From an uncultured Oscillospiraceae bacterium (lineage in GTDB: Bacteria > Bacillota > Clostridia > Oscillospirales > Oscillospiraceae), in assembly GCA_947584295.1 (NCBI GenBank), contig CANPWM010000002.1, forward strand, positions 7,937 to 71,936: a stretch of 64,000 nucleotides of DNA. Direction: 5' to 3'. Under the pieces are notes generated by a model. It was not told the origin of the DNA and ran no database searches. It was given only the letters and a program-made list of their open reading frames with translations. This document shows, one piece after another, positions 729-35,688 of this stretch (positions within the stretch are counted from its first letter, which is position 1; every line of letters begins with the position of its first letter). A program made the position numbers and the translations under genes.

Positions 729-1004
729 TCAATCCTCGCTGTCGATGTAGATCTCCTCGTCGGGGTCGATAAAGCCAAGCTTCCGGGCGATGTCGCGGAT
801 AACGTCCTCCTCCGCGCTATGCTCGATGTCATACTGCATACCGTCCACGCTGGCGGCAAGCTGGGCCTCGTAGCTCTTCAGCTCCTCAAGCTCGCTTCGC
901 TTTTGCTTTTCCAGGTCGCTTTGGCCGATCTTCGTCACCAGCGCGTACACCAGCAGGACCGCCAGGACGATCTTCGTAAGTATACCTGTACGTCTTAACC
1001 GCAT
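729..1004 (-). CDS. divIC: septum formation initiator family protein (DivIC/FtsB)
   Basis: 91 aa with one N-terminal TM helix then a coiled coil (EKQKRSELEELKSYEAQL). Synteny yabP-yabQ-divIC-yabR. Confidence 0.8.
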   Translation of the reverse strand: MRLRRTGILTKIVLAVLLVYALVTKIGQSDLEKQKRSELEELKSYEAQLAASVDGMQYDIEHSAEEDVIRDIARKLGFIDPDEEIYIDSED

Positions 1005-1479
1005 CTTCCGTATCCCTCGCTTTGGGCGCGGAGCCGCGCCGTCTTTTGACAGCTATTATTGTAAACCTTTTTTTCGCAGATGAAAAGGCCTTTTTTAAAA
1101 TTCGTCGAAATTTTTTAAAACTTTTTTCCAAAACCCGTATCGGAGCGGCCAAAATGAACAGGATCCGGCCCACGATGCCCGCCAAAAAGGCGCCGAAGGC
1201 CAGGATCAGCGGGCTGACCGTCAAAAAATAGAGGACGGCCCCCAGGGCGGCCATGAGCTGGAGGAAGATCCTCTGCCGCCCGCCCCCGGCGGACAGCCCC
1301 AGGGCAAAGAGCATAAAGGCCGCCGCGATCCAGAATACGGCGTCCGTCACCCAGGTGACGGCCCGGCCCTTCACGCTCCGCCGCAGGATCCGCATCAGGT
1401 CGTAAAGCACCCCCGCAAAGACGCCGCACAGCAGGGCCGCCCCCGCCTCCGCCAGCTGTGAGCTTACGGTCACCTCCAT
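886..1479 (-). CDS. yabQ: spore cortex biosynthesis protein YabQ-like membrane protein
   Basis: Multi-TM N-terminal half, directly after yabP. The basic low-complexity C-terminal tail overlaps divIC by 119 nt, so the 3' extent is uncertain. Confidence 0.6.
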   Translation of the reverse strand: MEVTVSSQLAEAGAALLCGVFAGVLYDLMRILRRSVKGRAVTWVTDAVFWIAAAFMLFALGLSAGGGRQRIFLQLMAALGAVLYFLTVSPLILAFGAFLAGIVGRILFILAAPIRVLEKSFKKFRRILKKAFSSAKKRFTIIAVKRRRGSAPKARDTEDAVKTYRYTYEDRPGGPAGVRAGDEDRPKRPGKAKAKRA

Positions 1480-1482
1480 AGC

Positions 1483-1770
1483 TCACCTGAAAAGCCTGGC
1501 AAAGAAGCCCTCGCCCTTTACCGGCGCGTCCTCGTACTCCAGCGCGTCCACCTGTCCCGTGACCACCACATCGCCGCTGTCCACGCTGAGCTTCTCCATG
1601 TGCAGCTCCTCCCCGTGGACGATCAGCGTCCCCTGGGTCGTCCCCATGACGATCTCCTGCTCGTTGAAGCTCTCCACGTCCGTCACCCCGGACACCAAAA
1701 GCCTCCTGCGGCCCTCCATGCTCAGGCTGTGGGCCGCCTCCGCCATGGGCCGTCTCTCCTCTCCCGCCAT
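1483..1770 (-). CDS. yabP: sporulation protein YabP
   Basis: 95 aa with a YabP-type pattern (LSMEGRRRLLVSGVTDVESFNEQEIVMGTTQGTLIVHGEELHMEKLSVD). The start may be the internal Met 8 codons downstream. Confidence 0.85.
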   Translation of the reverse strand: MAGEERRPMAEAAHSLSMEGRRRLLVSGVTDVESFNEQEIVMGTTQGTLIVHGEELHMEKLSVDSGDVVVTGQVDALEYEDAPVKGEGFFARLFR

Positions 1771-1892
1771 CTGTCTCCCCCTCTCAGGTCGATTCCACAG
1801 GCCCCCGCGCGGCGGCGCGGTTGTCCCGCTTTAAATATACGGCCCGGGCGCTAAGAATATTTGAGAATTTTTATCATTTTTTGGAAAAGGGG

Positions 1893-1921
1893 TTGACAAA
1901 TCCCTCCCGTGGGTGTATATT
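1893..1921 (+). promoter_or_regulatory. sigma-A-type promoter for the M23 peptidase gene
   Basis: TTGACA (1893-1898), 17-bp spacer, TATATT (1916-1921), AT-rich upstream tract. Confidence 0.6.
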
Positions 1922-1959
1922 TCATTTCGTTACCTTTTGTAACCGTTTTGTAACTTCTG

Positions 1960-3054
1960 ATGTTTGGAGAGATTTTCTTGTTTTTCAAAGATCCCCGTGA
2001 AACTGTCCTGAGCCGCGCCAAGGCCCGCCGGGTAAAGCTTTTGGCGGGCATGTCGGCCCTGGGCCTCTGCCTGACGCTGACGGCCCTGACCCCCGCGCCG
2101 GTGTCCGCCACCGCCGTATACCGGACGGCGGAGGCCCCGGAGGAAAGCCCGCTTGTGGAGGCCGTGGCCGTGACGGTGGACGGCGTCCACGCCGTGACGG
2201 TGGACAGCCGTGAGACGGCCCTGGCGCTGCTGGAGGAGATCCGGCGCGGGTACGAGACGCCCCTCACCGAGTCCGCGGCGTTCCGGGAGCGCGTGGAGCT
2301 GCTCCCCTGCCTCACCGAGCCGGAGGGCGTGATGGCCCCGGCGGACGCCAGGGCTTTGCTGGATCCGGAGAACACCGCCTCTCCCGTGGCCCTCACCGTC
2401 CTGACCATGGCCCCGGTGACCCGGGAGGAGGCTGTCCCCTTTGTCACCGAGACGGTGCTGATCCCCGACCAGTATTCCGACGAGACCTCCGTCACCCGCT
2501 CCGGCGTGGACGGGTGGGCGGTGAACACCTACTCCGTCATCTACGAAAACGGGCGGGAGGAGCTGGCCACCCTGACGGACAGCAGGATCGTCACAGAGCC
2601 CGTCAGTGAGATCGTGACCCAGGGCGCTCTGCCCGGCTCCCGGTACGACTCCCGTGGCGTGTATATCTGGCCCACCACCGGCGTCCTCACCAGCAAATTC
2701 GGCAGCAGGAACATCAGCATCGGCTCCTCCAACCACAAGGGCATCGACATCGGCAACGCCGCCGGCACCCCGGTGTGCGCCGCCGACGGGGGCGTGGTGA
2801 TCTTCGCCGGAAAAAACGGCGGCTACGGGAATTTCGTGGCCATACAGCACGACAACGGCGCCGTCACCCACTACGCCCATATGCGGAAGATCTTGGTGGA
2901 GGTGGGCCAGCGCGTGGCCCAGGGCCAGCAGATCGGCGAAATGGGCCGGACAGGCACCGCCACGGGGAACCACCTGCATTTTGAGATCCTCCCCGACGGC
3001 GAGACGCGGGTAGATCCCGTGGGCCTGCTCACCGGCGAGCTGCAGCGGTATTGA
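1960..3054 (+). CDS. M23 family metallopeptidase (secreted, LytM-like)
   Basis: C-terminal HKGIDIG...GNFVAIQHDNGAVTHYAHM...GRTGTATGNHLHFEI motifs and an N-terminal signal/TM segment. The start is uncertain; TTG at 1978 has a better SD. Confidence 0.85.
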   Translation: MFGEIFLFFKDPRETVLSRAKARRVKLLAGMSALGLCLTLTALTPAPVSATAVYRTAEAPEESPLVEAVAVTVDGVHAVTVDSRETALALLEEIRRGYETPLTESAAFRERVELLPCLTEPEGVMAPADARALLDPENTASPVALTVLTMAPVTREEAVPFVTETVLIPDQYSDETSVTRSGVDGWAVNTYSVIYENGREELATLTDSRIVTEPVSEIVTQGALPGSRYDSRGVYIWPTTGVLTSKFGSRNISIGSSNHKGIDIGNAAGTPVCAADGGVVIFAGKNGGYGNFVAIQHDNGAVTHYAHMRKILVEVGQRVAQGQQIGEMGRTGTATGNHLHFEILPDGETRVDPVGLLTGELQRY

Positions 3055-3112
3055 CCGGGCGAACGCTTTGGGGCGTTTCAGAAAAATTCCGGGGAAGTTT
3101 GCGAAAAAAGCC

Positions 3113-3141
3113 TTGACAACGGTTGCAAAATACCCTATAAT
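3113..3141 (+). promoter_or_regulatory. consensus sigma-A promoter for tRNA-Ser
   Basis: TTGACA (3113-3118), exactly 17 bp, TATAAT (3136-3141), about 35 nt upstream of the tRNA. Confidence 0.75.
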
Positions 3142-3176
3142 AGCAAGGCTTGCATAAAGAACCACTCAACCGGAAT

Positions 3177-3269
3177 GGAGAAGTCGCGTAGCCCGGTCGA
3201 GCGCGCACGATTGGAAATCGTGTAGGGGTCAAAAGCTCCTCGAGGGTTCGAATCCCTCCTTCTCCGCCA
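3177..3269 (+). tRNA. tRNA-Ser (anticodon GGA), CCA encoded
   Basis: Acceptor GGAGAAG/CTTCTCC; anticodon stem CACGA/TCGTG with loop TTGGAAA (anticodon GGA); long variable arm; T arm GAGGG-TTCGAAT-CCCTC; discriminator G plus CCA. Confidence 0.9.
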
Positions 3270-3274
3270 AAAAA

Positions 3275-3317
3275 AGCGTTGGAAGTGCTGGAAAGTCAGT
3301 AATTCCAACGCTTTTTC
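3275..3317 (+). terminator. intrinsic terminator after tRNA-Ser
   Basis: AGCGTTGGAA ... TTCCAACGCT stem followed by TTTTT. Confidence 0.75.
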
Positions 3318-3426
3318 ATTTGTTAACGCATGGTGGGAAAAAGCTCGAAATGGTGGGGTTATCGTGTAAAAATCGTGTAGTAGCCGCTCTTTTCTGGAGG
3401 GTTTTTTGAGTGAATAAAGGAGATTA

Positions 3427-3480
3427 TTTCAATCAGAAGGGGAACCCTGACGGTTCCCCTTCCCAACCCTTCCCTCCGAA
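3427..3480 (+). repeat. R1 palindromic repeat, copy 1
   Basis: GAAGGGGAACC-ctgac-GGTTCCCCTTC core plus the conserved tail CCAACCCTTCCCTCCGAA. Matches copies at 4298, 4348 and 24931 (reverse). Confidence 0.85.
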
Positions 3481-3517
3481 AACTGGGACACAGTAAAATA
3501 TTTGTCATGAAAAGCGC

Positions 3518-3546
3518 TTGCTATTGTCCGTACAATCGTGTATAAT
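3518..3546 (+). promoter_or_regulatory. promoter of the relB/parE operon
   Basis: TTGCTA, 17 bp, TATAAT (3541-3546). An AAAGGAG SD lies 8 nt before the ATG at 3577. Confidence 0.6.
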
Positions 3547-3576
3547 ATATATAGGAACTGAAAGGAGCTGCGGAAA

Positions 3577-3882
3577 ATGGCAAAAACGGCAAATCTGTAC
3601 GCGAGGATCGAGCCTGAACTCAAGGAGCAGGCGGAGGAGATCCTTTTGACCCTCGGCATCCCCGCTTCCAACGCCATCACCATGTTTTACAGGCAGATCG
3701 TCCTTCAACGCGGACTGCCCTTTGACGTGAAGCTTCCGGCGAATGTCCCTGCGGATGTGAGCAAGCTCACAGAAACGGAGCTGGACGCAGAGCTTGAGAA
3801 GGGGTATGCCGATGTAAAGGCCGGAAAGACCCGTGACGCCGGGAGCGTCTTTGCGGATATCCGCAGGGACTATGGCATATGA
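3577..3882 (+). CDS. type II antitoxin, RelB/DinJ family
   Basis: N-terminal ribbon-helix-helix pattern ANLYARIEPELKEQAEEILLTLGIPASNAITMFYRQIVLQRGLPF. A 4-nt overlap links it to the downstream toxin gene. Confidence 0.85.
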   Translation: MAKTANLYARIEPELKEQAEEILLTLGIPASNAITMFYRQIVLQRGLPFDVKLPANVPADVSKLTETELDAELEKGYADVKAGKTRDAGSVFADIRRDYGI

Positions 3883-4202
3883 CGTACCGCGTGACGATCT
3901 CCGCCCAGGCTGACGCGGATCTTCGTGGGATATATGAGTATATCGCGTTCAAGCTTCGCTCCATGATCAACACCGTGGGGCAGCTTGAACGATTGGAGAA
4001 GGCCATCCGGGGGCTGGACAAAATGCCGGAGAGGTATGCTCTCTATGGATCGGGCAAATGGGCGAAGAGGGGACTTCGTAAAATGCCGGTGGACAACTAT
4101 CTCGTATTCTACATTCCGGATAACGAGACCCGAACCGTCAATGTCATCCGGGTCATGTACGGCGGGATGGATGTGAAACGGGAGTTGGAAAGCAACACGT
4201 AA
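3879..4202 (+). CDS. type II toxin, ParE/RelE superfamily
   Basis: 107 aa. YRVTISAQADADLRGIYEYI ... YLVFYIPDNETRTVNVIRVMYGGMD is the typical ParE-like layout. Start overlaps the antitoxin stop (ATGA). Confidence 0.85.
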   Translation: MTYRVTISAQADADLRGIYEYIAFKLRSMINTVGQLERLEKAIRGLDKMPERYALYGSGKWAKRGLRKMPVDNYLVFYIPDNETRTVNVIRVMYGGMDVKRELESNT

Positions 4203-4297
4203 GCACAACGAGAAACGCCCTATTGAAAAGTAGGATTTTTAACCACTTACTCCAAAAAATCCAATAGGGCGGGGATTTTTTGGTGGAGAAGGAGACA

Positions 4298-4343
4298 ATT
4301 TCAACCGGAAGGGGAACCCTGATGGTTCCCCTTCCAACCGCCG
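4298..4343 (+). repeat. R1 palindromic repeat, copy 2 (truncated tail)
   Basis: GGAAGGGGAACC-ctgat-GGTTCCCCTTCC, lacking the CCCTTCCYTCCG tail. Confidence 0.8.
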
Positions 4344-4347
4344 CACG

Positions 4348-4414
4348 GCGGCGGGTGATTGAATCGGAAGGGGAACCCTGACGGTTCCCCTTCCAAACCC
4401 TTCCTTCCGAACAT
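4348..4414 (+). repeat. R1 palindromic repeat, copy 3 (full length)
   Basis: GGCGGCGGGTGATTGAATCGGAAGGGGAACCCTGACGGTTCCCCTTCCAAACCCTTCCTTCCGAACA. Nearly identical to the reverse complement of 24931-24994. Confidence 0.85.
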
Positions 4415-4460
4415 ACGGAAGCCTGATTTATTACGCAAATGTTCTGTACGGGCCGGACGC

Positions 4461-4568
4461 GTCGTCGCGGAACCGGCTTCACCTCGCATCCCCGCAGGGC
4501 GGGAACACTCAGGCGCACGGTTCGCTCCTCCTTTCCCCGTCGGGCAACGGCCCGATGGGGCCCCCAAT
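4461..4568 (+). repeat. R2 structured repeat, copy a (inside an R3 hairpin loop)
   Basis: GTCGTCGCGG-GAACCG...CGGTTC-GCTCCTCCTTTCCCC-hairpin-GGGGCCCCCAAT. Flanked by GGGCCG / CGGCCC, the two arms of an R3 palindrome. Confidence 0.85.
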
Positions 4569-4899
4569 GCGGCCCGCCAAACGAATTACGAAAAAGCCAT
4601 CGTACAATCTTGTAGGGGCCGCCGTCCCCGGCGGCCCGCCGAATTTCCGGCGCATTGCGTATAACGCGCCCATGTATCAAATTCTTGGAATTCTTTCCTA
4701 AATGTCAGTAGAGGCGGGTTCAAAACCCGCCTGCCAAATTCCCGGAAATTTAATTTCATCGCCGTACGGGCCGGACACCCGGCCGGCCCGCCATTCGAAT
4801 GACAATTTCGCCCTCCCAAAAAGGTTGGGGCTACGCCGCGTATTGAAAAAATGTCGGGCCGCCTCTCTTGGCGGCCCCTACATTGGAAATTCGATTCTT

Positions 4900-5499
4900 T
4901 TACATTTTCGCCTCCGCCCCCTGCTTCTCTCCGCCATACAGCATATGCGCTTTTTTCAGGGGCCGCTTCAGGGCCGGATAGAGCAGGGCGGCGCAGACCA
5001 TAGCGATAACACCGTTCACCAGCGTCGTCGGAAGCTTCACCGCCACGGTCTCGGCAATGGAAACCTGCCAGGTAAAGCCGCGCACAAGCACCCCGGACAG
5101 AATATTTTTCGTCACATACAAAAGGCAGTAGGTCAGCGTTCCCCCCAGGCCCGCCAGCCACGTCCTCAGATTTTCCGGTATTATACGAATATGGTGCATG
5201 ATAAGCCCAGCCACAAACGTCATCAGGAACTTGTTGATAAAAGTCATCCAGAAATCCGCCGCCCAGGTGGGATCTGTCAGATCCACAAGAGCGTTGCCCA
5301 GCCCCGCTGCCAGCCCGCCGGTAAGCGGCCCGAAAAGCAGGGCGGAGAGGATACACATGGCGTTGCCCACAGAGAGGGCCGTCCTCCCCAGCGGACTGGG
5401 AATGGGGATACTCACAAACTTTGTCAGCACAAAGATAAGCGCCGCCAACACCGCGGTAAGCGATATATTTCGGATCGTGAAAAACCTTTTCTTTTCCAT
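4900..5499 (-). CDS. ECF transporter S component (substrate unknown)
   Basis: 199 aa with about 6 TM segments. Typical ECF-S features: N-terminal RNISLTAVLAALIFVL, a GNAxxD region, no ATPase domain. No riboswitch recognised upstream. Confidence 0.65.
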   Translation of the reverse strand: MEKKRFFTIRNISLTAVLAALIFVLTKFVSIPIPSPLGRTALSVGNAMCILSALLFGPLTGGLAAGLGNALVDLTDPTWAADFWMTFINKFLMTFVAGLIMHHIRIIPENLRTWLAGLGGTLTYCLLYVTKNILSGVLVRGFTWQVSIAETVAVKLPTTLVNGVIAMVCAALLYPALKRPLKKAHMLYGGEKQGAEAKM

Positions 5500-5632
5500 C
5501 GTCCATAGCTCCTTCCAAGCCTGTTGTCAGGAGCTATTATACAACCGTCTGGTAATATTTAAATAGCCAGAAAAATATTATTTTTTATATCCAGTTTTCC
5601 TTATGTATCGGCAGCCCCCTTTCCCCTCCCCC

Positions 5633-6199
5633 TCACGTCTCATAGGGGCTTTCCAGGGAATAATCCCAGCGTTCCCCGCCGCGAAAGGCGTCCCGGAAAT
5701 AGTTGTGCCTGCCGTCCCCGGCGAACCAGAAATACCCCGCCGGGAGGACGCGGCCCGTGTCGTCAAGGCCGTTTTTCTCGTCGTTCCACCGCTTCAGCAC
5801 GTCCCCCGCCAGGGTGAGGAATTCCTCCTCCAGCGGCGCCCGATCCGGATAGTAAAACTGCCCCGGCGCTGTCACCACCTCCGCGATGGTCTCCCCCTCA
5901 AAGGCCGGACTGTCCAGGCGGTTCAGCACCGTCCAGGCCACGCACGCACGCTCCGTGTCGCTGCCGATGCCCCTGGCCTCCGCCCAGATGAGCCTTGCCA
6001 GCATCTCCACGTCGGCCTGGGTGTAATAGGTCACATAATCGTCGTCTTCCTGCGGGGGCTTGTCCACCGGCTCCAGACGCGCCTCCTCCGTCAAGGCCAC
6101 AGGGCGGCTGGCGGCTTTTTCATAGCACGTCTTGGCGCAGGCGGGCATGGCGGCCAGCACCATGACCCCGGCGATCAGGCCAAGCAAAACGGTTCTCAT
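5633..6199 (-). CDS. cell wall hydrolase, SleB-like (Hydrolase_2 family)
   Basis: Signal peptide, then LARLIWAEARGIGSDTERACVAWTVLNRL...APGQF, characteristic of spore cortex-lytic SleB-type hydrolase domains. Confidence 0.75.
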   Translation of the reverse strand: MRTVLLGLIAGVMVLAAMPACAKTCYEKAASRPVALTEEARLEPVDKPPQEDDDYVTYYTQADVEMLARLIWAEARGIGSDTERACVAWTVLNRLDSPAFEGETIAEVVTAPGQFYYPDRAPLEEEFLTLAGDVLKRWNDEKNGLDDTGRVLPAGYFWFAGDGRHNYFRDAFRGGERWDYSLESPYET

Positions 6200-6271
6200 C
6201 AGATCACACTCCTTGTCCCAATCCTATGCGGCAGGGCGTGTGAATATTCCTATTATTTTGAAAAAGGGCAT

Positions 6272-6302
6272 CAAAAACGACGGGACAGCATCGGCTGTCC
6301 CG
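6272..6302 (-). terminator. intrinsic terminator of the CBS gene
   Basis: GGGACAGC-cgat-GCTGTCCC on the minus strand, followed by GTCGTTTTTGA. Confidence 0.7.
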
Positions 6303-6330
6303 CCTTCCGCGACGACGAATTATATTAGTA

Positions 6331-6759
6331 TTAGGCTTCGGTAAATTCCTCGTCCAGCGGCGGCAGCTCCCGGCCCGCCAGCTCCGCGATGATCATGCGA
6401 CGGGTGACGATGCCGCACAGCGCCCCCCGGTCGTCCACCACCGGGACGAAATTCTGCTGGAGCGCCGCGTCGATCAGCTTATCCTCGCTGGCCGTGATGG
6501 CGATAGGCGGGCAGAAGTCCCGTCGCATGATCTCCCCCACCGTATGGCGCTCCATCTCCGGCGCGGCGCCGTTCAGCCCGTCGAAATACCGCAGAAAGTC
6601 CCGGTCGTTGACGCACCCGATGAACTTCCCCTCCGGGTCCAGCACCGGTATGGCGGTGTACCCGTGGCGGCGCATCACATCTACGCCCTTGCGGATGGTG
6701 GAGTCGGTCCGCAGGCACACGGTCAGCGCCTTAGGCACCATGATTTTCGCTATGTTCAT
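6331..6759 (-). CDS. CBS domain-containing protein
   Basis: 142 aa with a tandem CBS pair pattern (HGYTAIPVLDPEGKFIGCV ... NFVPVVDDRGALCGIVTRR). Confidence 0.85.
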   Translation of the reverse strand: MNIAKIMVPKALTVCLRTDSTIRKGVDVMRRHGYTAIPVLDPEGKFIGCVNDRDFLRYFDGLNGAAPEMERHTVGEIMRRDFCPPIAITASEDKLIDAALQQNFVPVVDDRGALCGIVTRRMIIAELAGRELPPLDEEFTEA

Positions 6760-6955
6760 ATCGCTTGAACCCCCATGATCCCTGTTTGGATTTGTCTATA
6801 TTGTAACATAAGCCCGGGGCGAATGGGTTAATTTTTTGTGAAGTTTACAAATTGTTCGAAGCTGTGATGCAATTGCGTTTGGTCTTGCGAAAATCGCCCG
6901 GTTGTATTAAAATGTTCCCAGGAACCAAAGCTTCCCCTGAAACGAGGTGTTATCC

Positions 6956-8818
6956 ATGGAGTACAACGCCGGGCGCTGTGACGTGGCCGTTATCGGCGCG
7001 GGTCACGCCGGGATCGAGGCGGCGCTGGCCTCATGCCGGCTGGGGTGCCGGACGGTGATCTTCACCATGAATCTGGACAGCGTGGGCAATATGCCCTGCA
7101 ACCCGGCCATCGGCGGCACGGCCAAGGGGCATCTGGTGCGGGAGCTTTCGTGTCTGGGTGGGCAGATGCCGGTGACGGCGGATCAGGCCTGCATCCAGTA
7201 CCGTATGCTGAACCTGGGCAAAGGCCCCGCCGTCTGGTCCCTGCGGGCCCAGGCGGACAGGCGCGAATACCAGAAGCTCATGAAGGGCGTGCTGGAGCGG
7301 CAGGAGGGCCTGCGGCTCGTCCAGGCGGAGATCGTAGAGATCCGCACGGAAAACGGCGCCGTCAGCGCCGTAGTCACCGCCTCCGGGGCCGTCTGGGCCT
7401 GCCGCGCCGCCGTCGTCTGCACCGGCACCTACCTCCACGGACGCACCGTGGTGGGGGACGTCACCCGGGAGAGCGGCCCCGACGGTATGCACGCCTCCGG
7501 CCCCCTCACCGGCTGTCTGGCGGGCCTGGGCCTCTCCCTCCGGCGGTTCAAGACCGGCACGCCGCCCCGGATCAACGCCAGGAGCGTGGATTTTTCAAAA
7601 ATGGAGCTGCAGCCGGGGGATCCCCGCCCGGAACCCTTCACCTTCGACGGGGAGACCGTGCCGGAAAATAGGGCGGTGTGCTGGCTCACCTACACCAACC
7701 AACGCACCCACCAGATCATCAGGGACAACCTGGCCCGCTCCCCCCTCTACAACGGCGTCATCGACGGCGTGGGGCCCCGCTACTGCCCCTCCATCGAGAC
7801 GAAGATCGTCACCTTCCCGGACAAGCCGCGCCACCAGCTCTTCATCGAACCCATGGGCCTGGGTACGGAGGAGCTGTATATCCAGGGCCTCTCCTCCTCG
7901 CTCCCGGAGGACGTGCAGACGGAGATGGTCCACTCCATTCAGGGCCTTGAACACGCCGAGATCCAGCGGTACGCCTACGCCATCGAGTACGACTGCGTGG
8001 ATCCCACGGAGCTTACCCTGACGCTGGAGGCCCGGCGCGTCCCCGGCCTCTACGGCGCGGGGCAGTTCAACGGCAGCTCCGGCTACGAGGAGGCGGCGGT
8101 GCAGGGCTTCGTGGCCGGGGCCAACGCCGCCCTGAAAATACAGGGCCGGGAGCCGCTGATCCTGGATCGGGCGGGCAGCTACATCGGCACCCTCATCGAC
8201 GACCTGGTGACCCGCGGCACCAACGAACCCTACCGCATGATGACCTCCCGCTCGGAGTACCGCCTGTGTCTGCGGCAGGACAACGCGGATATCCGCCTGT
8301 GCGGCGTCGGCCACGCCCTGGGCCTCATCTCCGATGAGCGGTATCAGCGGGTGCTGGAGAAATATGAAAACGTGGAGCGGGAGACGGCCCGCCTGGAGGC
8401 GGCATACGTCTCCCCCACCCCGGCGCTGAACGATTTCCTGGCCGCCCACGGCCAGCCGCCGGTGTCCACCGGCGTCAGCCTCGCCTCCCTGATCCGGCGG
8501 CCCCAGCTGGACTACGCCTCCACCGCCCCCTTCGACCCCGCCCGCCCCGCCCTGCCGGAGCAGGTGGTACGGGAGGTGGAGATCGGCCTTAAGTACGCCG
8601 GGTACATCGAAAAGCAGACCCGGCAGATCCGGGAATTTCGCCGGCTGGAAGCCAAAAAGCTCCCGCCGGACATCGACTACAACGCCATTCAGGGCCTCCG
8701 GCTGGAGGCACGGCAGAAGCTTGACCGCCTGCGCCCGGACAATCTGGGCCAGGCCACCCGCATCTCCGGCGTGTCCCCCGCCGACGCCGCCGCCCTGATG
8801 GTATACCTCTCCAAATGA
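6956..8818 (+). CDS. mnmG: tRNA uridine 5-carboxymethylaminomethyl modification enzyme MnmG (GidA)
   Basis: FAD motif [16 protein letters not shown], then ...GQINGTxGYEEAA-like [16 protein letters not shown] and C-terminal [19 protein letters not shown] 6956 is preferred over GTG 6947 because the GAGGTG SD is 6 nt upstream. Confidence 0.95.
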
Positions 8819-19293: not shown

Positions 19294-19345
19294 GTCAATA
19301 CTCCAATCCTAAAAATTATTTTAAACCCATAAAGGGATACTGCGC

Positions 19346-19453
19346 GTCGTCCTCGCGCGAGCCGCTTTACCTCGCCCTCCCTGACGGTCGGGTTCAGGCG
19401 CAGGCTCGGCTCGTCCTCTCCCCACCGGGCAACGGCCCGGCGGGGGCCCCATT
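19346..19453 (+). repeat. R2 structured repeat, copy c
   Basis: GTCGTCCTCGCG-CGAGCCG...CGGCTCG-TCCTCTCCCC-ACCGGGCaacgGCCCGGCGGGGGCCCC, in the trmL-pgk spacer. Confidence 0.8.
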
Positions 19454-31455: not shown

Positions 31456-33654
31456 ATGAAGATCATCAAGCGAAACGGCGCGGAGATGGATTTTGACATC
31501 AAGAAGATCGAGAACGCCATCAGCAAGGCCAATATGTCCGTGGAGGAGTCGTCCCGCATGACGCCCCTCCAGATCCGGCGCATATCCGAGTCCGTGGCCC
31601 TGGACTGCGAAAACATGGGCCGAAGCCCCTCCGTGGAGGAGATACAGGATCTGGTGGAGAAGCAGATCATGGCCCACGGGGCCTTTGAGGTGGCCAAGAA
31701 CTACATCACCTACCGCTACACCAGGAGCCTGGTGCGCCAGAGCAACACCACCGACGAGAAGATCCTCTCCCTCATCGAGTGCTGCAACGAGGAGGCCAAG
31801 CAGGAGAACTCCAACAAGAACCCCGTGGTCAACTCCACCCAGCGCGACTACATGGCCGGTGAGGTCAGCCGCGACCTCTCCGAGCGCATCCTTCTCCCCC
31901 GGGACATCGTGGAGGCCCACGAGGCCGGGATCATTCACTTCCACGACACCGACTATTACGCTCAGCATATGCACAACTGCGACCTGGTGAACCTGGAGGA
32001 TATGCTCCAGAACGGCACCGTCATCACCGGCACCCTTATCGAGCGTCCCCACAGCTTCTCCACCGCCTGCAACATCGCCACGCAGATCATCGCCCAGGTG
32101 GCCTCCAACCAGTACGGCGGCCAGTCCATCTCCCTTACGCATCTGGCCCCCTTTGTGGACGTGAGCCGCCGGAAGATCCGCAAGGTGGTGGAAAACGAGC
32201 TGGTGACTCTGGGCGTCAACCCCGAAGAGGATAAGATCCAGAAGATCGTGGAGGACAGGCTCCTGGAGGAGATCCGCCGGGGCGTCCAGACTATCCAGTA
32301 CCAGGTGGTCACCCTGCTCACCACCAACGGGCAGGCCCCCTTCGTCACCGTGTTCATGTATCTGGGCGAGGCCCGCTCTGAGCGGGAGCGGGAGGATCTG
32401 GCCCTGATCATCAGGGAGGTCCTGCTCCAGCGCTACGAGGGCACCAAGAACGAGGACGGCGTATGGGTCACCCCCGCCTTCCCCAAGCTCATCTACGTTC
32501 TGGAGGAGGACAACATCACCGAGGGATCCCGGTATTGGGAGCTTACAAAGCTGGCGGCCAAATGCACCGCCCGCCGCATGGTCCCCGACTACATCAGCGA
32601 GAAGAAGATGCTGGAGCTTAAAGGCGACGTCTACACCTGCATGGGCTGCCGCTCCTTCCTGACCCCCGACCGCTTCACCGACGCGGGCGTGGGCAACATC
32701 GCCAACGCCGGAAACTACGAGCCGGGCAAGCACAAATACTACGGCCGTTTCAACCAGGGCGTGGTCACCATCAATCTCCCCGACGTGGCCCTCTCCTCCG
32801 GCGGCAATATGGACAAGTTCTGGAGCATCTTTGAGGAGCGCCTGGAGCTGTGCCACCGGGCCCTGCGGTGCCGTCACGAGCGGCTTCTGGGCACCCCCTC
32901 CGACGTGGCCCCCATTCTCTGGCAGCACGGCGCCCTGGCCCGCCTGGAAAAAGGCGAACCCATCGACAGGCTCCTCTACGGCGGCTACTCCACTATCTCC
33001 TTGGGCTACGCCGGTCTTTATGAGTGTGTCAAGTACATGACCGGCAGATCCCACACCGACCCGGAGGCCACCCCCTTCGCCCTGGCGGTGATGCAGAAGA
33101 TGAACGACAAGTGCAAGGAGTGGAAGACGGCGGAGAACATCGACTACTCCCTCTACGGCACGCCCCTGGAGTCCACCACCTACAAGTTCGCCAAGTGCCT
33201 CCAGCGCCGCTTCGGCATCATCGAGGGCATCACCGACAAGGGCTACATCACCAACTCCTACCACGTCCACGTCACCGAGCAGATCGACGCTTTCACCAAG
33301 CTCAAATTCGAGTCCGAGTTCCAGGCCCTCTCCCCCGGCGGCGCCATCAGCTACGTGGAGGTGCCGGATATGCAGAACAACCTGGAGGCCGTTTTGCAGG
33401 TGATGCGGTTCATCTACGACAACATCATCTACGCCGAGCTGAACACCAAGTCCGACTACTGCCAGTGCTGCGGCTGGGACGGCGAGATCGACATCGTGGA
33501 GGAGGACGGCAAGCTCATCTGGAAATGCCCCAAGTGCGGCAACACCGACCAGAACAAGATGAACGTGGCCCGGCGCACCTGCGGCTACATCGGCACCCAG
33601 TTCTGGAACCAGGGCCGGACCCAGGAGATCAGAGACCGGGTACTCCACCTTTAA
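31456..33654 (+). CDS. nrdD: anaerobic ribonucleoside-triphosphate reductase
   Basis: 732 aa. N-terminal ATP-cone (MKIIKRNGAEMDFDIKKI), C-terminal Zn ribbon CQCCGW...CPKCG and glycyl radical motif RTCGYIG. Confidence 0.95.
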   Translation: MKIIKRNGAEMDFDIKKIENAISKANMSVEESSRMTPLQIRRISESVALDCENMGRSPSVEEIQDLVEKQIMAHGAFEVAKNYITYRYTRSLVRQSNTTDEKILSLIECCNEEAKQENSNKNPVVNSTQRDYMAGEVSRDLSERILLPRDIVEAHEAGIIHFHDTDYYAQHMHNCDLVNLEDMLQNGTVITGTLIERPHSFSTACNIATQIIAQVASNQYGGQSISLTHLAPFVDVSRRKIRKVVENELVTLGVNPEEDKIQKIVEDRLLEEIRRGVQTIQYQVVTLLTTNGQAPFVTVFMYLGEARSEREREDLALIIREVLLQRYEGTKNEDGVWVTPAFPKLIYVLEEDNITEGSRYWELTKLAAKCTARRMVPDYISEKKMLELKGDVYTCMGCRSFLTPDRFTDAGVGNIANAGNYEPGKHKYYGRFNQGVVTINLPDVALSSGGNMDKFWSIFEERLELCHRALRCRHERLLGTPSDVAPILWQHGALARLEKGEPIDRLLYGGYSTISLGYAGLYECVKYMTGRSHTDPEATPFALAVMQKMNDKCKEWKTAENIDYSLYGTPLESTTYKFAKCLQRRFGIIEGITDKGYITNSYHVHVTEQIDAFTKLKFESEFQALSPGGAISYVEVPDMQNNLEAVLQVMRFIYDNIIYAELNTKSDYCQCCGWDGEIDIVEEDGKLIWKCPKCGNTDQNKMNVARRTCGYIGTQFWNQGRTQEIRDRVLHL

Positions 33655-33913
33655 TACTAATATCTAATTAAAATAAGACATTCGCGCCGGTCTTTTTTCG
33701 TCCTCGCACGAGCCGCTTAACCTCGGGCTGCAAGTATTCGCCCTCAGGCGCTGGCTCGGCTCGGCCTCTCCCCATCGGGCAGCGGCCCGATGGGGGCCCC
33801 GGATACTGCGTCAGCCGCCTTGGGAATACATACAGTATTCCCTGCGGTGTCTTCCTTGCCTGACACGAAAAATCCTCGCCGCTCGGTGTCTCCTTTTAAA
33901 TAGATATTAGTAT
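33654..33913. mobile_element. MITE-like 260-bp insertion between nrdD and nrdG
   Basis: Terminal inverted repeats ATACTAATATCTAATTAAAA (33654-33673) and TTTTAAATAGATATTAGTAT (33894-33913) match 19/20. The interior holds an R2 copy and a GGGAATAC-atac-AGTATTCCC hairpin; no ORF. Confidence 0.65.
33699..33800 (+). repeat. R2 structured repeat, copy d
   Basis: CGTCCTCGCA-CGAGCCG...CGGCTCG-GCCTCTCCCC-ATCGGGCagcgGCCCGATGGGGGCCCC. Confidence 0.8.
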
Positions 33914-33922
33914 CAAACTAAC

Positions 33923-33956
33923 CGTTCCCGGGGCGCAAGTCCCGGGAAACGTTTTA
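33923..33956 (+). terminator. intrinsic terminator/attenuator between nrdD and nrdG
   Basis: CGTTCCCGGG-gcgcaagt-CCCGGGAAACG followed by TTTT. Confidence 0.65.
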
Positions 33957-34061
33957 AAAAACAAAATCGAAGCCCAGCGCAGCGGGTTCGATTTTGAGAG
34001 GAGGAATGAACACAGCGCCTGAGCCGTCACGCCCGCGCGGCGGCGAGGCAAAGCGTGTTCA

Positions 34062-34604
34062 ATGACGACGATGAATTATGGTGAGATCAAAAACTGCGAC
34101 ATTGCCAACGGTCAGGGGGTGCGGGTGACGCTCTTTGTCTCCGGCTGTACCAACCACTGCCAGGGGTGCTTCCAGCCCCAGACCTGGGATTTTGACTTCG
34201 GCAGGCCCTTCACCCGGGAGGCGGAGGATCAGCTGATGGAGATGCTGGCCCCCGGCTACATCAACGGCCTGACGCTCCTGGGCGGCGAGCCTATGGAGCC
34301 GTCCAATCAGCGGGCGCTGCTGCCCTTTGTCCGCCGCGTCCGGGAAACCTACCCGGACAAGACCGTGTGGTGCTACTCCGGCTTCACCTTAGAGGAGCTT
34401 CGCACCGACGGCTCCCACCCCCGGTGCGAGGCGACGGACGAGCTGCTCTCCCTTATCGACGTCCTGGTGGACGGCAAGTTCGTCCTGGCCCAGAAGGACA
34501 TCTCCCTGCGCTTTCGCGGCTCCCGGAACCAGCGGATCATCGCCCTGCCCAAGACGCTGAAAACAGGCCGGATCTGCCTGTGGGACGACCATCTGGGCAA
34601 ATAA
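34062..34604 (+). CDS. nrdG: anaerobic ribonucleoside-triphosphate reductase activating protein
   Basis: DIANGQGVRVTLFVSGCTNHCQGCFQPQTW radical SAM cluster motif; 180 aa. Confidence 0.9.
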   Translation: MTTMNYGEIKNCDIANGQGVRVTLFVSGCTNHCQGCFQPQTWDFDFGRPFTREAEDQLMEMLAPGYINGLTLLGGEPMEPSNQRALLPFVRRVRETYPDKTVWCYSGFTLEELRTDGSHPRCEATDELLSLIDVLVDGKFVLAQKDISLRFRGSRNQRIIALPKTLKTGRICLWDDHLGK

Positions 34605-34629: not shown

Positions 34630-35688
34630 TTAAACATGTCCCAATTCCCTTTTGTGTTCCCGGAGTATCTGAGCCATACCTGGGGTGTATATTTATCCAG
34701 CGGTGTGTAAAACATTTTCCCGCTATCATAATTGCTGACGGGTGATAATGCAAAATACACTGCCGCCTCAATTTAATGAAGTCGGGGTTACATGATAACT
34801 GGATCTACAAGGTACACAATATATGGTCGTCAGACTATGTATAGAAGTGCGCCCTTTAGTTCCAAAATGGTTTTTACAACGTCTCAACAAGCAAGAATTT
34901 ATCTGCCAGAACGGAAATGGGAAAAGGCCAGGATCCCCACGGGAAGGAAATAAGCACACCAGCATTCCAGCGCGATGACGCCGCCCACGCTTGTTCTCCC
35001 GTCAGCCATAGAACTGAACACACCCGTCATGGGCATGATAAAACAGCCAAAGAAGAAAATGCCGTGGATGATCATCAAGCGTCTCAACCATTGATCCACA
35101 CGATTGTGCCCACGTATGGTCAGCCCAAAAAAGAATGTCGACAGCGCCATCATGCCATAGCCCAGCAGGTCATAGCTGAACATCAGCCCGCCTCTGGAAT
35201 AATCCAGCAGCTTTACAGCCTGGTCTGTCATCGTGTCAAGCCGGACAGTTGTCGTCTGCGCGAAATACACCAGCAGGACAAATACGGCGTAGATGACGGC
35301 GAAGGCCATACCCGCTTTTGCCGCAACCTGATGCTCTGCATCGCTTTCACGGCTGAATCCCGCTGCCATCATCACATACCCGATGGCAAGCAGCATACAC
35401 ACAAAATAGCTTCCGAAGTCAAAAGGAATCAGCATGCAGATGGCAAACAGAAGAACTGAAAAGACGACGATCAAAGATCCTGCTTTCGCAATGCTGCGAT
35501 CCATCATGCTCCCTCCCTAAATCAGAAATTTGTCGAGCAGTCGCCCACGTCGATATTTAATATTATACTACCCAAATGTGAAGAAGTCTACCACTCATCA
35601 GGTGGAAGTGATGGGGTTTTATTCACGCTGATTGATAACAATTCGCGATTTTAGCTGGGAACACAAAGTCGAATTGGGACTTAAACAT
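34630..35688. mobile_element. mobile insertion cassette-like element (TIR + 8-bp TSD, single passenger gene, no transposase)
   Basis: Direct repeat TTAAACAT at 34630-34637 and 35681-35688. Imperfect inverted repeats GTCCCAATTCCCTTTTGTGTTCCC (34638-34661) and GGGAACACAAAGTCGAATTGGGAC (35657-35680) match 21/24. The interior is visibly AT-richer than its flanks. Confidence 0.75.
34899..35507 (-). CDS. hypothetical integral membrane protein (about 6 TM), passenger of the cassette
   Basis: 202 aa, hydrophobic throughout, GGGAGGGAG SD before the ATG. No motif recognised. Confidence 0.6.
   Translation of the reverse strand: MMDRSIAKAGSLIVVFSVLLFAICMLIPFDFGSYFVCMLLAIGYVMMAAGFSRESDAEHQVAAKAGMAFAVIYAVFVLLVYFAQTTTVRLDTMTDQAVKLLDYSRGGLMFSYDLLGYGMMALSTFFFGLTIRGHNRVDQWLRRLMIIHGIFFFGCFIMPMTGVFSSMADGRTSVGGVIALECWCAYFLPVGILAFSHFRSGR

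What the first reader, a model, noticed from the sequence alone, without database searches (positions are those of the whole stretch)
33654..33913. 260-bp MITE-like element inserted between nrdD and nrdG, starting at the nrdD stop codon
nrdD and nrdG are usually adjacent, but here they are 407 bp apart. The extra DNA is bounded by 20-bp inverted repeats (19/20 match; ATACTAATATCTA core). The left one begins with the last base of the nrdD TAA. Inside are an R2 copy (33699-33800) and a perfect 8-bp-stem hairpin (33824-33843). The native-looking terminator/attenuator (33923-33956) and a second hairpin (33962-33996) lie outside the element. The AT-rich ends contrast with the GC-rich interior. This suggests a composite non-autonomous element that captured R2, or R2 inserted into a pre-existing MITE.
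Basis: partly seen in the sequence, partly recalled or inferred. Interest (0 to 1): 0.6.

Follow-up and report, generated by a model that had tools for sequence, protein, structure and literature searches.

The report
Nested MITE inserted at nrdD stop codon
The extra DNA between nrdD and nrdG is a real, recently inserted 258-bp miniature transposon of an apparently undescribed, high-copy family from rabbit-gut Oscillospiraceae; it landed exactly on the nrdD stop codon, rebuilt that codon through its 3-bp target duplication, and carries a second small mobile repeat (R2) nested inside it.

Summary
The element spans 33655-33912 (258 bp). It is flanked by TAA (33652-33654, the nrdD stop) and TCA (33913-33915). 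Five related species have an empty site and spacers of 56-158 nt instead of 407 nt. A conspecific metagenome contig carries the same insert. The ends recur in at least 19 rabbit-gut Oscillospiraceae species genomes. I recovered 79 paired copies: 51 of a 158-160 bp base form and 27 carrying R2. The target duplication is 3 bp, TNA (62 of 78 perfect). One 97.5%-identical filled/empty pair fixes the boundaries. R2 (33698-33805) always sits at the same site and in the same orientation, replacing 9 nt of the base form. R2-bearing copies are scattered over the backbone tree and have different junctions. R2 therefore entered a pre-existing MITE repeatedly. The ends resemble those of IS630-family elements. 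One complete 1,124-bp IS has TACTA...TAGTA ends flanked by TAA/TAA, so trans-mobilisation by such a transposase is the best inference. No partner with matching ends was found. The element has no promoter or terminator match and folds into a long hairpin. Its effect on nrdD-nrdG expression is untested. It is a new member of a known kind and of moderate interest.

The parts
31456..33654 (+). nrdD (class III anaerobic ribonucleotide reductase), intact. Its TAA stop (33652-33654) is the left copy of the target duplication.
   Evidence: Pfam NRDD 2.7e-192, ATP-cone, Gly_radical. ORF list.
33652..33654 (+). Left target-site duplication TAA, which is also the nrdD stop codon.
   Evidence: Family-wide 3-bp TNA duplication. 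Relatives have a single TAA at this position.
33655..33912 (+). The MITE itself (258 bp), with the A-end on the left. It is a composite of the 159-bp base element and R2.
   Evidence: Boundaries come from 79 family copies and from the filled/empty pair L040/L014. The backbone is 98% identical to the family consensus.
33655..33697 (+). Left arm (consensus nt 1-43), including the AT-rich terminal inverted repeat TACTAATATCTAATTAAAATAAGACA.
   Evidence: blastn to the consensus, 95.3%. Inverted repeat I1.
33698..33805 (+). Nested R2 repeat (108 nt, 70% G+C). It replaces consensus nt 44-52 (CGCGCCATG), the tip of a small local hairpin.
   Evidence: Alignments to R2-less copies with 99% identical backbone. 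Other R2 copies lie at about 4440-4566 and 19345-19451.
33806..33912 (+). Right part of the MITE (consensus nt 53-159). It holds the apical hairpin 33822-33842 and the right terminal inverted repeat ending ...TAGATATTAGTA.
   Evidence: blastn to the consensus, 99.1%. Hairpin I16.
33913..33915 (+). Right target-site duplication, now TCA (one change from TAA).
   Evidence: The conspecific contig L001 reads the same.
33923..33956 (+). Native GC hairpin followed by a short T run (weak terminator or attenuator). It lies outside the element and is conserved in all empty-site relatives.
   Evidence: Alignment A3. Inverted repeat I5. The + strand scan does not call it a terminator because it has only 4 T.
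33962..33996 (+). Second native hairpin just upstream of the Shine-Dalgarno sequence. It is conserved in four of the five relatives.
   Evidence: Inverted repeat I2. Alignment A3.
34062..34604 (+). nrdG (activating radical-SAM enzyme), intact.
   Evidence: Pfam Fer4_12 4.6e-51. Homologues at 85-90% identity.

Best explanation
The 258 bp at 33655-33912 are a non-autonomous transposon (MITE). It belongs to a high-copy family shared by many rabbit-gut Oscillospiraceae.

Shown:
- The family's base form is a 159-bp foldback with AT-rich ends TACTAAT...ATTAGTA.
- It inserts at T-N-A and duplicates those 3 bp.
- Here it hit the TAA stop codon of nrdD. The left duplicate restores the stop codon, so nrdD is unharmed. 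The native hairpins, the upstream ORF and nrdG were pushed 261 bp downstream.
- The copy also carries R2, an unrelated roughly 105-nt GC-rich structured repeat. R2 has repeatedly and independently entered one specific spot of this MITE, the tip of a small hairpin at consensus nt 44-52, always in one orientation.

Inferred:
- Movement is by cut-and-paste, catalysed in trans by an IS630-family transposase of a subgroup whose own ends are TACTA...TAGTA flanked by TAA.
- The element is transcribed as part of the nrdD-nrdG message, because it has no promoter or terminator of its own.
- In that message it forms a long hairpin of about -114 kcal/mol. This hairpin is tolerated and could be a substrate for double-strand-specific RNases, as shown for Correia elements.
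- Its net effect on nrdG expression is probably small.
For: Insertion polymorphism:
- nrdD-nrdG spacers are 154, 158, 143 and 56 nt in relatives, against 407 nt here.
- The alignment shows a clean gap exactly over the element.
- CANRMY has CACCTTTAA followed directly by the native hairpin.
- The conspecific contig L001 has the same insert with 2 SNPs.

Repetition:
- The end motif was found in 117 or more stretches, about 100 of them in 19 'Lapin' Oscillospiraceae species genomes.
- There are 79 paired copies with a mean 93% identity.
- Five identical copies lie at five loci of one genome.
- Depth over the arms is 1,000-7,000, against 15-200 over the flanks, in rabbit-gut DNA runs.

Target duplication:
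- 62 of 78 copies have perfect 3-bp TNA repeats, and none has 4 bp.
- L040 (TAA[element]TAA) compares with L014 (single TAA) at 97.5% flank identity.

Stop-codon hits: 23 of 78 duplications coincide with the stop of an open frame of 80 or more codons, against 11% of all TNA sites (p = 6.6e-6).

R2:
- It has the same site and orientation in 27 of 27 copies.
- Junctions differ between R2 types.
- It is scattered on the backbone tree.

Recent spread: the window backbone is 98-99% identical to copies in other species, while orthologous flanks are 85-88% identical.

Candidate partner family:
- L085 has the end TACTAACCTCTAATAAAAAGTAGACA (22-23 of 26 matches to the MITE end), followed by an ORF.
- Relatives of that ORF hit only NCBIfam NF033545, IS630.
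- L133:172-1295 is a complete IS630-family IS. OrfB has DDE_3 at 128.5 bits, above the cut-off of 100. Its ends are TACTATTCC.../...GGAATAGTA, flanked by TAA/TAA.

Fold and signals: MFE is -113.6 kcal/mol with z = -7.9. There is no sigma-70-like promoter, and no terminator within the element.
Against: - The window's own duplication is imperfect (TAA/TCA).
- No other copy lies in the 64-kb window.
- No autonomous IS with ends matching the MITE closely was recovered whole. L085 is cut by a contig end, and L133 shares only the end architecture (TACTA, an A-run at nt 15-20, the TAA flank), not the full repeat.
- From my own knowledge, the IS630/Tc1/mariner superfamily duplicates TA, not 3 bp. TNA is typical of some IS5-family groups and of PIF/Harbinger.
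- The stop-codon enrichment is measured against all TNA sites, not against intergenic ones. Part of it may be survivorship.
- Co-transcription and RNA processing are untested. The only RNA run holding this locus was too thin.
Confidence: 0.8

Rival explanations
1. The element is a MITE, but it is mobilised by an IS5-family (IS1031/ISL2-type) or PIF/Harbinger-like transposase, not by an IS630-type one.
For: The 3-bp TNA duplication is the hallmark of those groups. This rests on my own knowledge of ISfinder family descriptions and on PMC4482050 for PIF/Harbinger, seen only as a title and abstract. No full-length partner with closely matching ends was found.
Against: The only coding elements found with TACTAA ends encode IS630-family protein parts. 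A complete IS630-family IS has the same TACTA...TAGTA ends and TAA/TAA flanks. No IS5-type gene was seen next to such ends in about 0.9 Mb of fetched loci.
Confidence: 0.12
2. Beyond being a transposon, the inserted hairpin is kept because it does something for nrdD-nrdG. It might stabilise the nrdD 3' end, or create an RNase III cut that uncouples nrdD and nrdG mRNA levels.
For: The fold is very stable and lies inside the operon. Correia and ERIC elements do this in other bacteria (PMC10969869; PMC2229807). A second species carries a copy in the nrdD 5' leader. Two conspecific assemblies keep the insert.
Against: Five related species manage without it. There is no orientation bias relative to the adjacent gene among stop-codon insertions: 6 versus 6 among the twelve whose adjacent gene lies on the + strand. 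No RNA evidence exists. High identity is explained by recent spread.
Confidence: 0.15
3. The element is a hairpin repeat of the REP/REPIN kind, moved as single-stranded DNA by a Y1 (RAYT or IS200/IS605-like) enzyme rather than by a DDE transposase.
For: The whole element is one long foldback. The genome is rich in other palindromic repeats, and the mover of R2 is unknown.
Against: Consistent 3-bp direct target duplications are not made by Y1 enzymes (own knowledge). The ends match DDE-type IS630 elements.
Confidence: 0.03

Closest known systems
RUP (repeat unit of pneumococcus), a 107-bp MITE proposed to be moved by IS630-Spn1 (PMC2229807)
   Same: Both are small, ORF-less, intergenic, high-copy elements of a Gram-positive bacterium. 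In both, the terminal repeats resemble those of an IS630-family IS, so trans-mobilisation is inferred from end similarity.
   Different: RUP inserts at TA. This family duplicates 3 bp (TNA) and keeps TA inside its ends. There is no sequence relation. This one is 159 bp, forms one long foldback and often carries a nested second repeat.
Correia / NEMIS elements of Neisseria (PMC10969869, PMC2229807)
   Same: Both have a 100-160 bp foldback with AT-rich terminal repeats and are often co-transcribed with neighbouring genes. They come in long and short size classes and show filled/empty polymorphism between strains.
   Different: Correia duplicates TA, carries promoters and an IHF site, and its RNase III processing has been shown experimentally. 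Here no promoter match was found and processing is only inferred.
IS630-family insertion sequences with two ORFs (NCBIfam NF033545), for example the complete copy L133:172-1295
   Same: The ends begin TACTA and have an A-run at nt 15-20, and the flank is TAA/TAA. OrfA relatives sit next to the MITE-like end in L085.
   Different: The MITE has no coding capacity and shares only about 26 nt of end sequence. The canonical family trait, a TA duplication, is not what the data show.
IS5-family IS1031/ISL2 groups and eukaryotic PIF/Harbinger-Tourist MITEs
   Same: They share the 3-bp TNA/TWA target duplication.
   Different: No end or protein similarity was found. The resemblance rests on the duplication alone.

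Membership tests
Bacterial MITE (non-autonomous DDE-transposon derivative) | Short (well under 500 bp) with no coding capacity | tested here: met
   The element is 258 bp and the base form is 159 bp. The only ORF is a 40-codon antisense frame in a 63% G+C background.
Bacterial MITE (non-autonomous DDE-transposon derivative) | Terminal inverted repeats | tested here: met
   The arms are 31 nt and 87% complementary. The ends are conserved in 79 copies.
Bacterial MITE (non-autonomous DDE-transposon derivative) | Target-site duplication of fixed length | tested here: met
   The duplication is 3 bp TNA in 62 of 78 copies. The filled/empty pair L040/L014 confirms it. The window copy itself is TAA/TCA.
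Bacterial MITE (non-autonomous DDE-transposon derivative) | Many dispersed copies in the genome | tested here: inconclusive
   There are 1 to 16 or more paired copies per genome (at least 10 in each of the three richest) in 16 related species genomes, 19 counting unpaired ends. Only one copy lies in this window.
Bacterial MITE (non-autonomous DDE-transposon derivative) | Presence/absence polymorphism at orthologous sites | tested here: met
   The nrdD stop site is empty in L003/4, L005-7, L008, L011 and L073. L014 is empty where L040 is filled.
IS630-family-derived MITE (RUP-like) | Ends match those of an IS630-family IS | tested here: inconclusive
   The L085 end matches 22-23 of 26 nt and has an IS630-type OrfA start, but it is cut by the contig end. 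The complete IS L133 shares the TACTA end, the A-run and the TAA flanks, but little more.
IS630-family-derived MITE (RUP-like) | TA target duplication | tested here: not met
   The duplication is TNA (3 bp). TA is part of the element ends.
IS630-family-derived MITE (RUP-like) | A matching transposase gene in the same genome | not testable with these tools
None was seen in the 64-kb window.
IS5-family (IS1031/ISL2) derived MITE | TNA 3-bp duplication | tested here: met
IS5-family (IS1031/ISL2) derived MITE | Ends match an IS5-family IS | not tested
   No ISfinder copy was available. No IS5-type gene was seen beside TACTAA ends in the fetched loci.
Known RNA families (Rfam 15) | Match to a curated covariance model | tested here: not met
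   Only chance-level hits, all with E above 0.8 and far below gathering scores.

The most novel reading that the evidence does not exclude
This may be a lineage of IS630-type elements that cuts its target with a 3-nt stagger at T-N-A instead of the TA that my own knowledge gives for the superfamily. Its MITE would then land preferentially on stop codons (TAA/TGA on either strand) and rebuild them, making it a nearly harmless 3'-UTR coloniser. The MITE in turn would offer a dedicated docking site that a second, mechanistically unknown mobile RNA-like module (R2) has invaded at least four times. In some copies a third roughly 60-nt module sits inside R2.
Probability: 0.35. Interest if true: 0.6.

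Novelty: new member of a known kind. Interest (0 to 1): 0.42.

Why it matters
The finding adds a well-delimited, evidently active MITE family for gut Oscillospiraceae, a group with almost no described small mobile elements.

- The consensus, the end motif and the TNA rule allow automatic masking and annotation. At least four metagenome-assembled contigs here end inside a copy (L002, L033, L052, L097), so the family is also a practical cause of fragmented assemblies.
- Copies are 98-99% identical across species whose orthologous DNA is about 87% identical. This points to recent exchange within the rabbit caecal community.
- The stop-codon habit and the recurrent, oriented entry of R2 at one spot give two testable handles: the target choice of an IS630-like enzyme and the unknown mechanism that moves R2.
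- For the nrd operon itself, the insertion is a natural experiment on how much extra structured RNA an intercistronic region tolerates.

Tried and rejected
Copy number in this genome is therefore unknown.
- Rfam gave no credible family, in either the region-level E-value mode or the whole-window gathering mode.
- I searched for the autonomous partner in five ways.
  - A metagenome scan with the 49-aa L085 fragment found only an unrelated ParB-like HTH protein, L129.
  - A viral scan found nothing.
  - A padded-query protein search with the L085 fragment found nothing.
  - The same trick with a longer relative gave mostly truncated or chimeric ORFs, plus the one complete IS, L133.
  - No second copy of L133 is on record.
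- The proteobacterial IS630 relative on a Caballeronia plasmid has different ends, so it does not show whether the 3-bp rule is general.
- RNA evidence for co-transcription failed. One metatranscriptome holds the organism, but only as a 159-nt contig downstream of the element. Two sister runs hold nothing.
- No precise-excision joint was seen in four runs. The joints found are other species' empty sites or R2-less copies elsewhere.
- A test of whether insertions interrupt genes was abandoned, because long spurious frames in 63% G+C DNA made it meaningless.
- I considered a TA-duplication model, with the element taken as CTAAT...ATTAG. I rejected it because the flanking N is the same on both sides (direct, not palindromic) and because the L014 empty site has a single TAA.
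- Literature searches found no description of this family and no link between IS630 and TNA duplications.
Full report
**What is in the sequence**

nrdD (31456-33654) and nrdG (34062-34604) are intact and correctly identified. They lie 407 nt apart.

The spacer begins with an AT-rich stretch that pairs with a second one about 250 nt downstream. The arms are 33650-33680 and 33887-33917, 31 nt long and 87% complementary. The 13-mer core occurs only at these two places in the window, against 0.13 expected by chance.

Between the arms lie three features:
- a copy of the GC-rich R2 repeat, also present at about 4440-4566 and 19345-19451;
- an 8-bp hairpin at 33822-33842;
- further inward pairing.

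The arms have 20-30% G+C, R2 has 70% and the window has 62.7%.

**It is an insertion**

I fetched the nrdG loci of species whose NrdG is 85-90% identical. Their spacers are 154 nt (L003/L004), 158 nt (L005-L007), 143 nt (L011) and 56 nt (L008).

In the alignment, the window has a clean extra block between the stop codon and a GC hairpin that all relatives share. A further species, CANRMY (locus L073), reads CACCTTTAA followed after 10 nt by that same hairpin. This also shows that the CTT-TAA end of nrdD is native.

A metagenome contig encoding the identical NrdG carries the same insert with two SNPs. A second such contig breaks off inside the element, as assemblies do at repeats.

**It is a member of a large family**

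I scanned one genome per prokaryote species for the end motif TACTAATATCTAWTTAAAA. About 100 are in 19 'Lapin' (rabbit-gut) MAGs, nearly all labelled Oscillospiraceae. The remainder are single chance hits in AT-rich genomes.

Pairing plus- and minus-strand ends gave 79 elements:

| Length (bp) | Copies |
|---|---|
| 158-160 | 51 |
| 257-262 | 23 |
| 280 | 2 |
| 318-319 | 2 |
| 87 | 1 |

- The 159-bp base form has a mean pairwise identity of 93%. It folds into a single long hairpin.
- Genomes whose nrd site is empty (CANQBA, CANQPU, CANQSU) carry the family elsewhere.
- One genome has five identical copies at five loci.
- In rabbit-gut DNA runs, summed depth over the arms is 1,000-7,000, against 15-200 over the flanks.

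**Boundaries and target duplication**

Sixty-two of 78 copies are flanked by a perfect 3-bp direct repeat T-N-A: TAA 28, TTA 18, TGA 9 and TCA 7. None is flanked by a 4-bp repeat.

One pair settles the boundaries. L040 reads GGAAA-TAA-[TACTAAT...ATTAGTA]-TAA-GCTACACC. L014, whose flanks are 97.5% identical, reads GGAAA-TAA-GCTACACC.

The element in the window is therefore 33655-33912. Its duplication is TAA (33652-33654, the nrdD stop) and TCA (33913-33915), with one later change. I considered a TA-duplication model and rejected it. The variable middle base is the same on both sides, and the empty site has a single TAA.

**Stop codons**

All four TNA triplets are TAA or TGA on one strand or the other. 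In 23 of 78 copies, the duplication is the stop codon of an open frame of 80 or more codons. Only 11% of all TNA sites in the same loci meet that condition (binomial p = 6.6e-6).

The duplication rebuilds the stop, so such insertions leave the gene intact. This is what happened at nrdD. Part of the excess may be survivorship, because the control was not restricted to intergenic sites.

There is no orientation bias relative to the adjacent gene.

**R2 is a later guest**

The window copy matches the base consensus at nt 1-43 (33655-33697) and nt 53-159 (33806-33912), with 98% identity overall. The 108 nt at 33698-33805 replace the 9 nt CGCGCCATG.

- All 27 long copies carry R2 at this same spot and in the same orientation.
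- The R2 sequences fall into at least four types with compensatory stem changes. The junctions differ between types.
- On a tree of the backbones, R2-bearing copies are scattered. Well-supported branches force at least 4 changes, and there is no more clustering than in label shuffles.
- The window's backbone is 99% identical to R2-less copies in two other species.

R2 therefore entered a pre-existing MITE repeatedly. Near-identical composites at different loci, each with its own duplication, show that the composite also transposes. Three copies in CANRMY are an example.

Four copies in one genome have a further roughly 60-nt block inside R2.

**Who moves it**

No coding element with closely matching ends was recovered whole. 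Three observations point to the IS630 family.

- In L085, a sequence TACTAACCTCTAATAAAAAGTAGACA follows a TGA. It matches 22-23 of 26 nt of the MITE end. Sixty-six nt further on, an ORF begins that the contig end cuts after 49 codons.
- A full-library phmmer search found many relatives of this N-terminus. Most are short or fused to unrelated host sequence. The informative ones hit only the NCBIfam IS630 model. P0135 joins the N-terminus to the characteristic C-terminal ...PPYTPEMNPIEQIW... part. It matches annotated IS630 transposases on plasmids at about 40% identity.
- One complete relative exists, L133:172-1295 (1,124 bp). OrfA has HTH_33. OrfB has DDE_3 and scores 128.5 bits on NF033545, above the cut-off of 100. 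Its ends are TACTATTCC... and ...GGAATAGTA, flanked by TAA on both sides. The L085 fragment is 44% identical to its OrfA. Another truncated relative, L131, begins TACTAATAGCTTGTTAAAAAG after TAA.

The best inference is trans-mobilisation by an IS630-type transposase of a subgroup with TACTA ends and 3-bp TNA duplications.

This departs from the TA duplication that defines the superfamily. That definition rests on my own knowledge, although PMC2229807 gives TA for RUP and IS630-Spn1. I found no paper linking IS630 to TNA. An IS5-type enzyme, for which TNA is typical, remains a rival.

**What it does to nrdD-nrdG**

- The simple scans find no sigma-70-like promoter in 33400-34150 and no terminator within the element.
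- As RNA on the nrd strand, the 281-nt region folds at -113.6 kcal/mol (z = -7.9), closed by the AT-rich arms.
- The native weak terminator hairpin (33923-33956), a second hairpin (33962-33996) and a 19-codon upstream ORF overlapping the nrdG start are all conserved in relatives. They are untouched here.

I infer that the element is co-transcribed and tolerated. By analogy with Correia and ERIC elements (PMC10969869, PMC2229807), the long stem could be cut by RNase III or could alter mRNA stability.

This is not shown. The one metatranscriptome that holds the organism gave only a 159-nt contig starting at 33922. Two sister runs gave nothing.

**Comparison with what is known, and verdict**

In kind, this is a bacterial MITE. 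It meets the size, terminal-repeat, duplication and polymorphism criteria. Its copy number is documented in relatives but not in this genome.

It works like RUP and Correia. It is not related to them in sequence, and it differs in its 3-bp duplication. I found no description of it in the paper library. Earlier first-stage notes of this scan had seen the same 161-bp foldback in other genomes.

I rate it a new member of a known kind. The stop-codon habit, the possible 3-bp IS630 subgroup and the recurrent nesting of R2 are its more interesting aspects.

**Limits**

- The partner IS is inferred from end architecture, not demonstrated.

Noticed in passing
L073:3159-3318 (CANRMY, Lapin-030__bin26): In another species, a base-form copy of the same MITE sits in the 5' leader of nrdD, about 60 nt upstream of the start codon and flanked by TTA/TAA. 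That species' nrdD stop site is empty. The nrd operon has therefore been hit independently at two different places in two species.
   Followed up: partly
window 34006-34065: A 19-codon upstream ORF with a strong Shine-Dalgarno sequence (GAGAGGAGGA) ends in TGA overlapping the nrdG ATG (ATGA). The ORF and the hairpin before it are conserved in four of five relatives (alignment A3), which suggests translational coupling of nrdG.
   Followed up: partly
L024:3836-4153, L026:2142-2460, L030:2149-2428, L111:2430-2709 (all CANPYK): Three-level nesting: a further GC-rich block of about 60 nt (…ATCTCGGCCCAAGAGCCGCCGCTGCGCGGCGGTTGGCC…) sits inside the R2 copy that sits inside the MITE. Two of these copies also lack about 40 nt of the MITE core.
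   Followed up: no
window 6303-6333: The terminal roughly 15 nt of R2 (reverse orientation) are joined directly to AATTATATTAGTA, which resembles the last 13-15 nt of the MITE end. TTA follows, which is the reverse-strand stop codon of the gene at 6331-6759. This may be a decayed second MITE::R2 insertion at a stop codon. The match is short.
   Followed up: partly
P0153, P0186, P0242, P0243, P0247 (metagenome proteins); L131:634-1263; L132:2501-3097: Many predicted proteins in gut metagenomes are chimeras. They join the first 45-110 residues of this IS630-type OrfA, or an internal piece of it, to unrelated host sequence such as a dehydrogenase, Listeria-Bacteroides repeats, AAA_14 or a methyltransferase. 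Truncated derivatives of this IS lineage therefore seem widespread, and they mislead gene callers.
   Followed up: partly
L021, L069, L070, L110, L116 (CANQSU): Five MITE copies with identical backbones lie at five different loci of one genome, each with its own TNA duplication. This is the signature of a very recent burst.
   Followed up: no
window 33708-33775, RNA run X11: In the one metatranscriptome, summed contig depth over the 5' half of R2 (about 2,400 and 970) is far above that over the MITE arms (60-120). In the DNA runs the arms dominate instead. R2-like sequences thus seem to be abundantly transcribed somewhere in the community. This is not specific to this locus.
   Followed up: no
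window 34630-35688: Relatives (L003, L011) go straight from nrdG to the 266-aa gene. The window has an extra 202-aa gene in between. nrdG is thus bracketed by two independent insertions.
   Followed up: no
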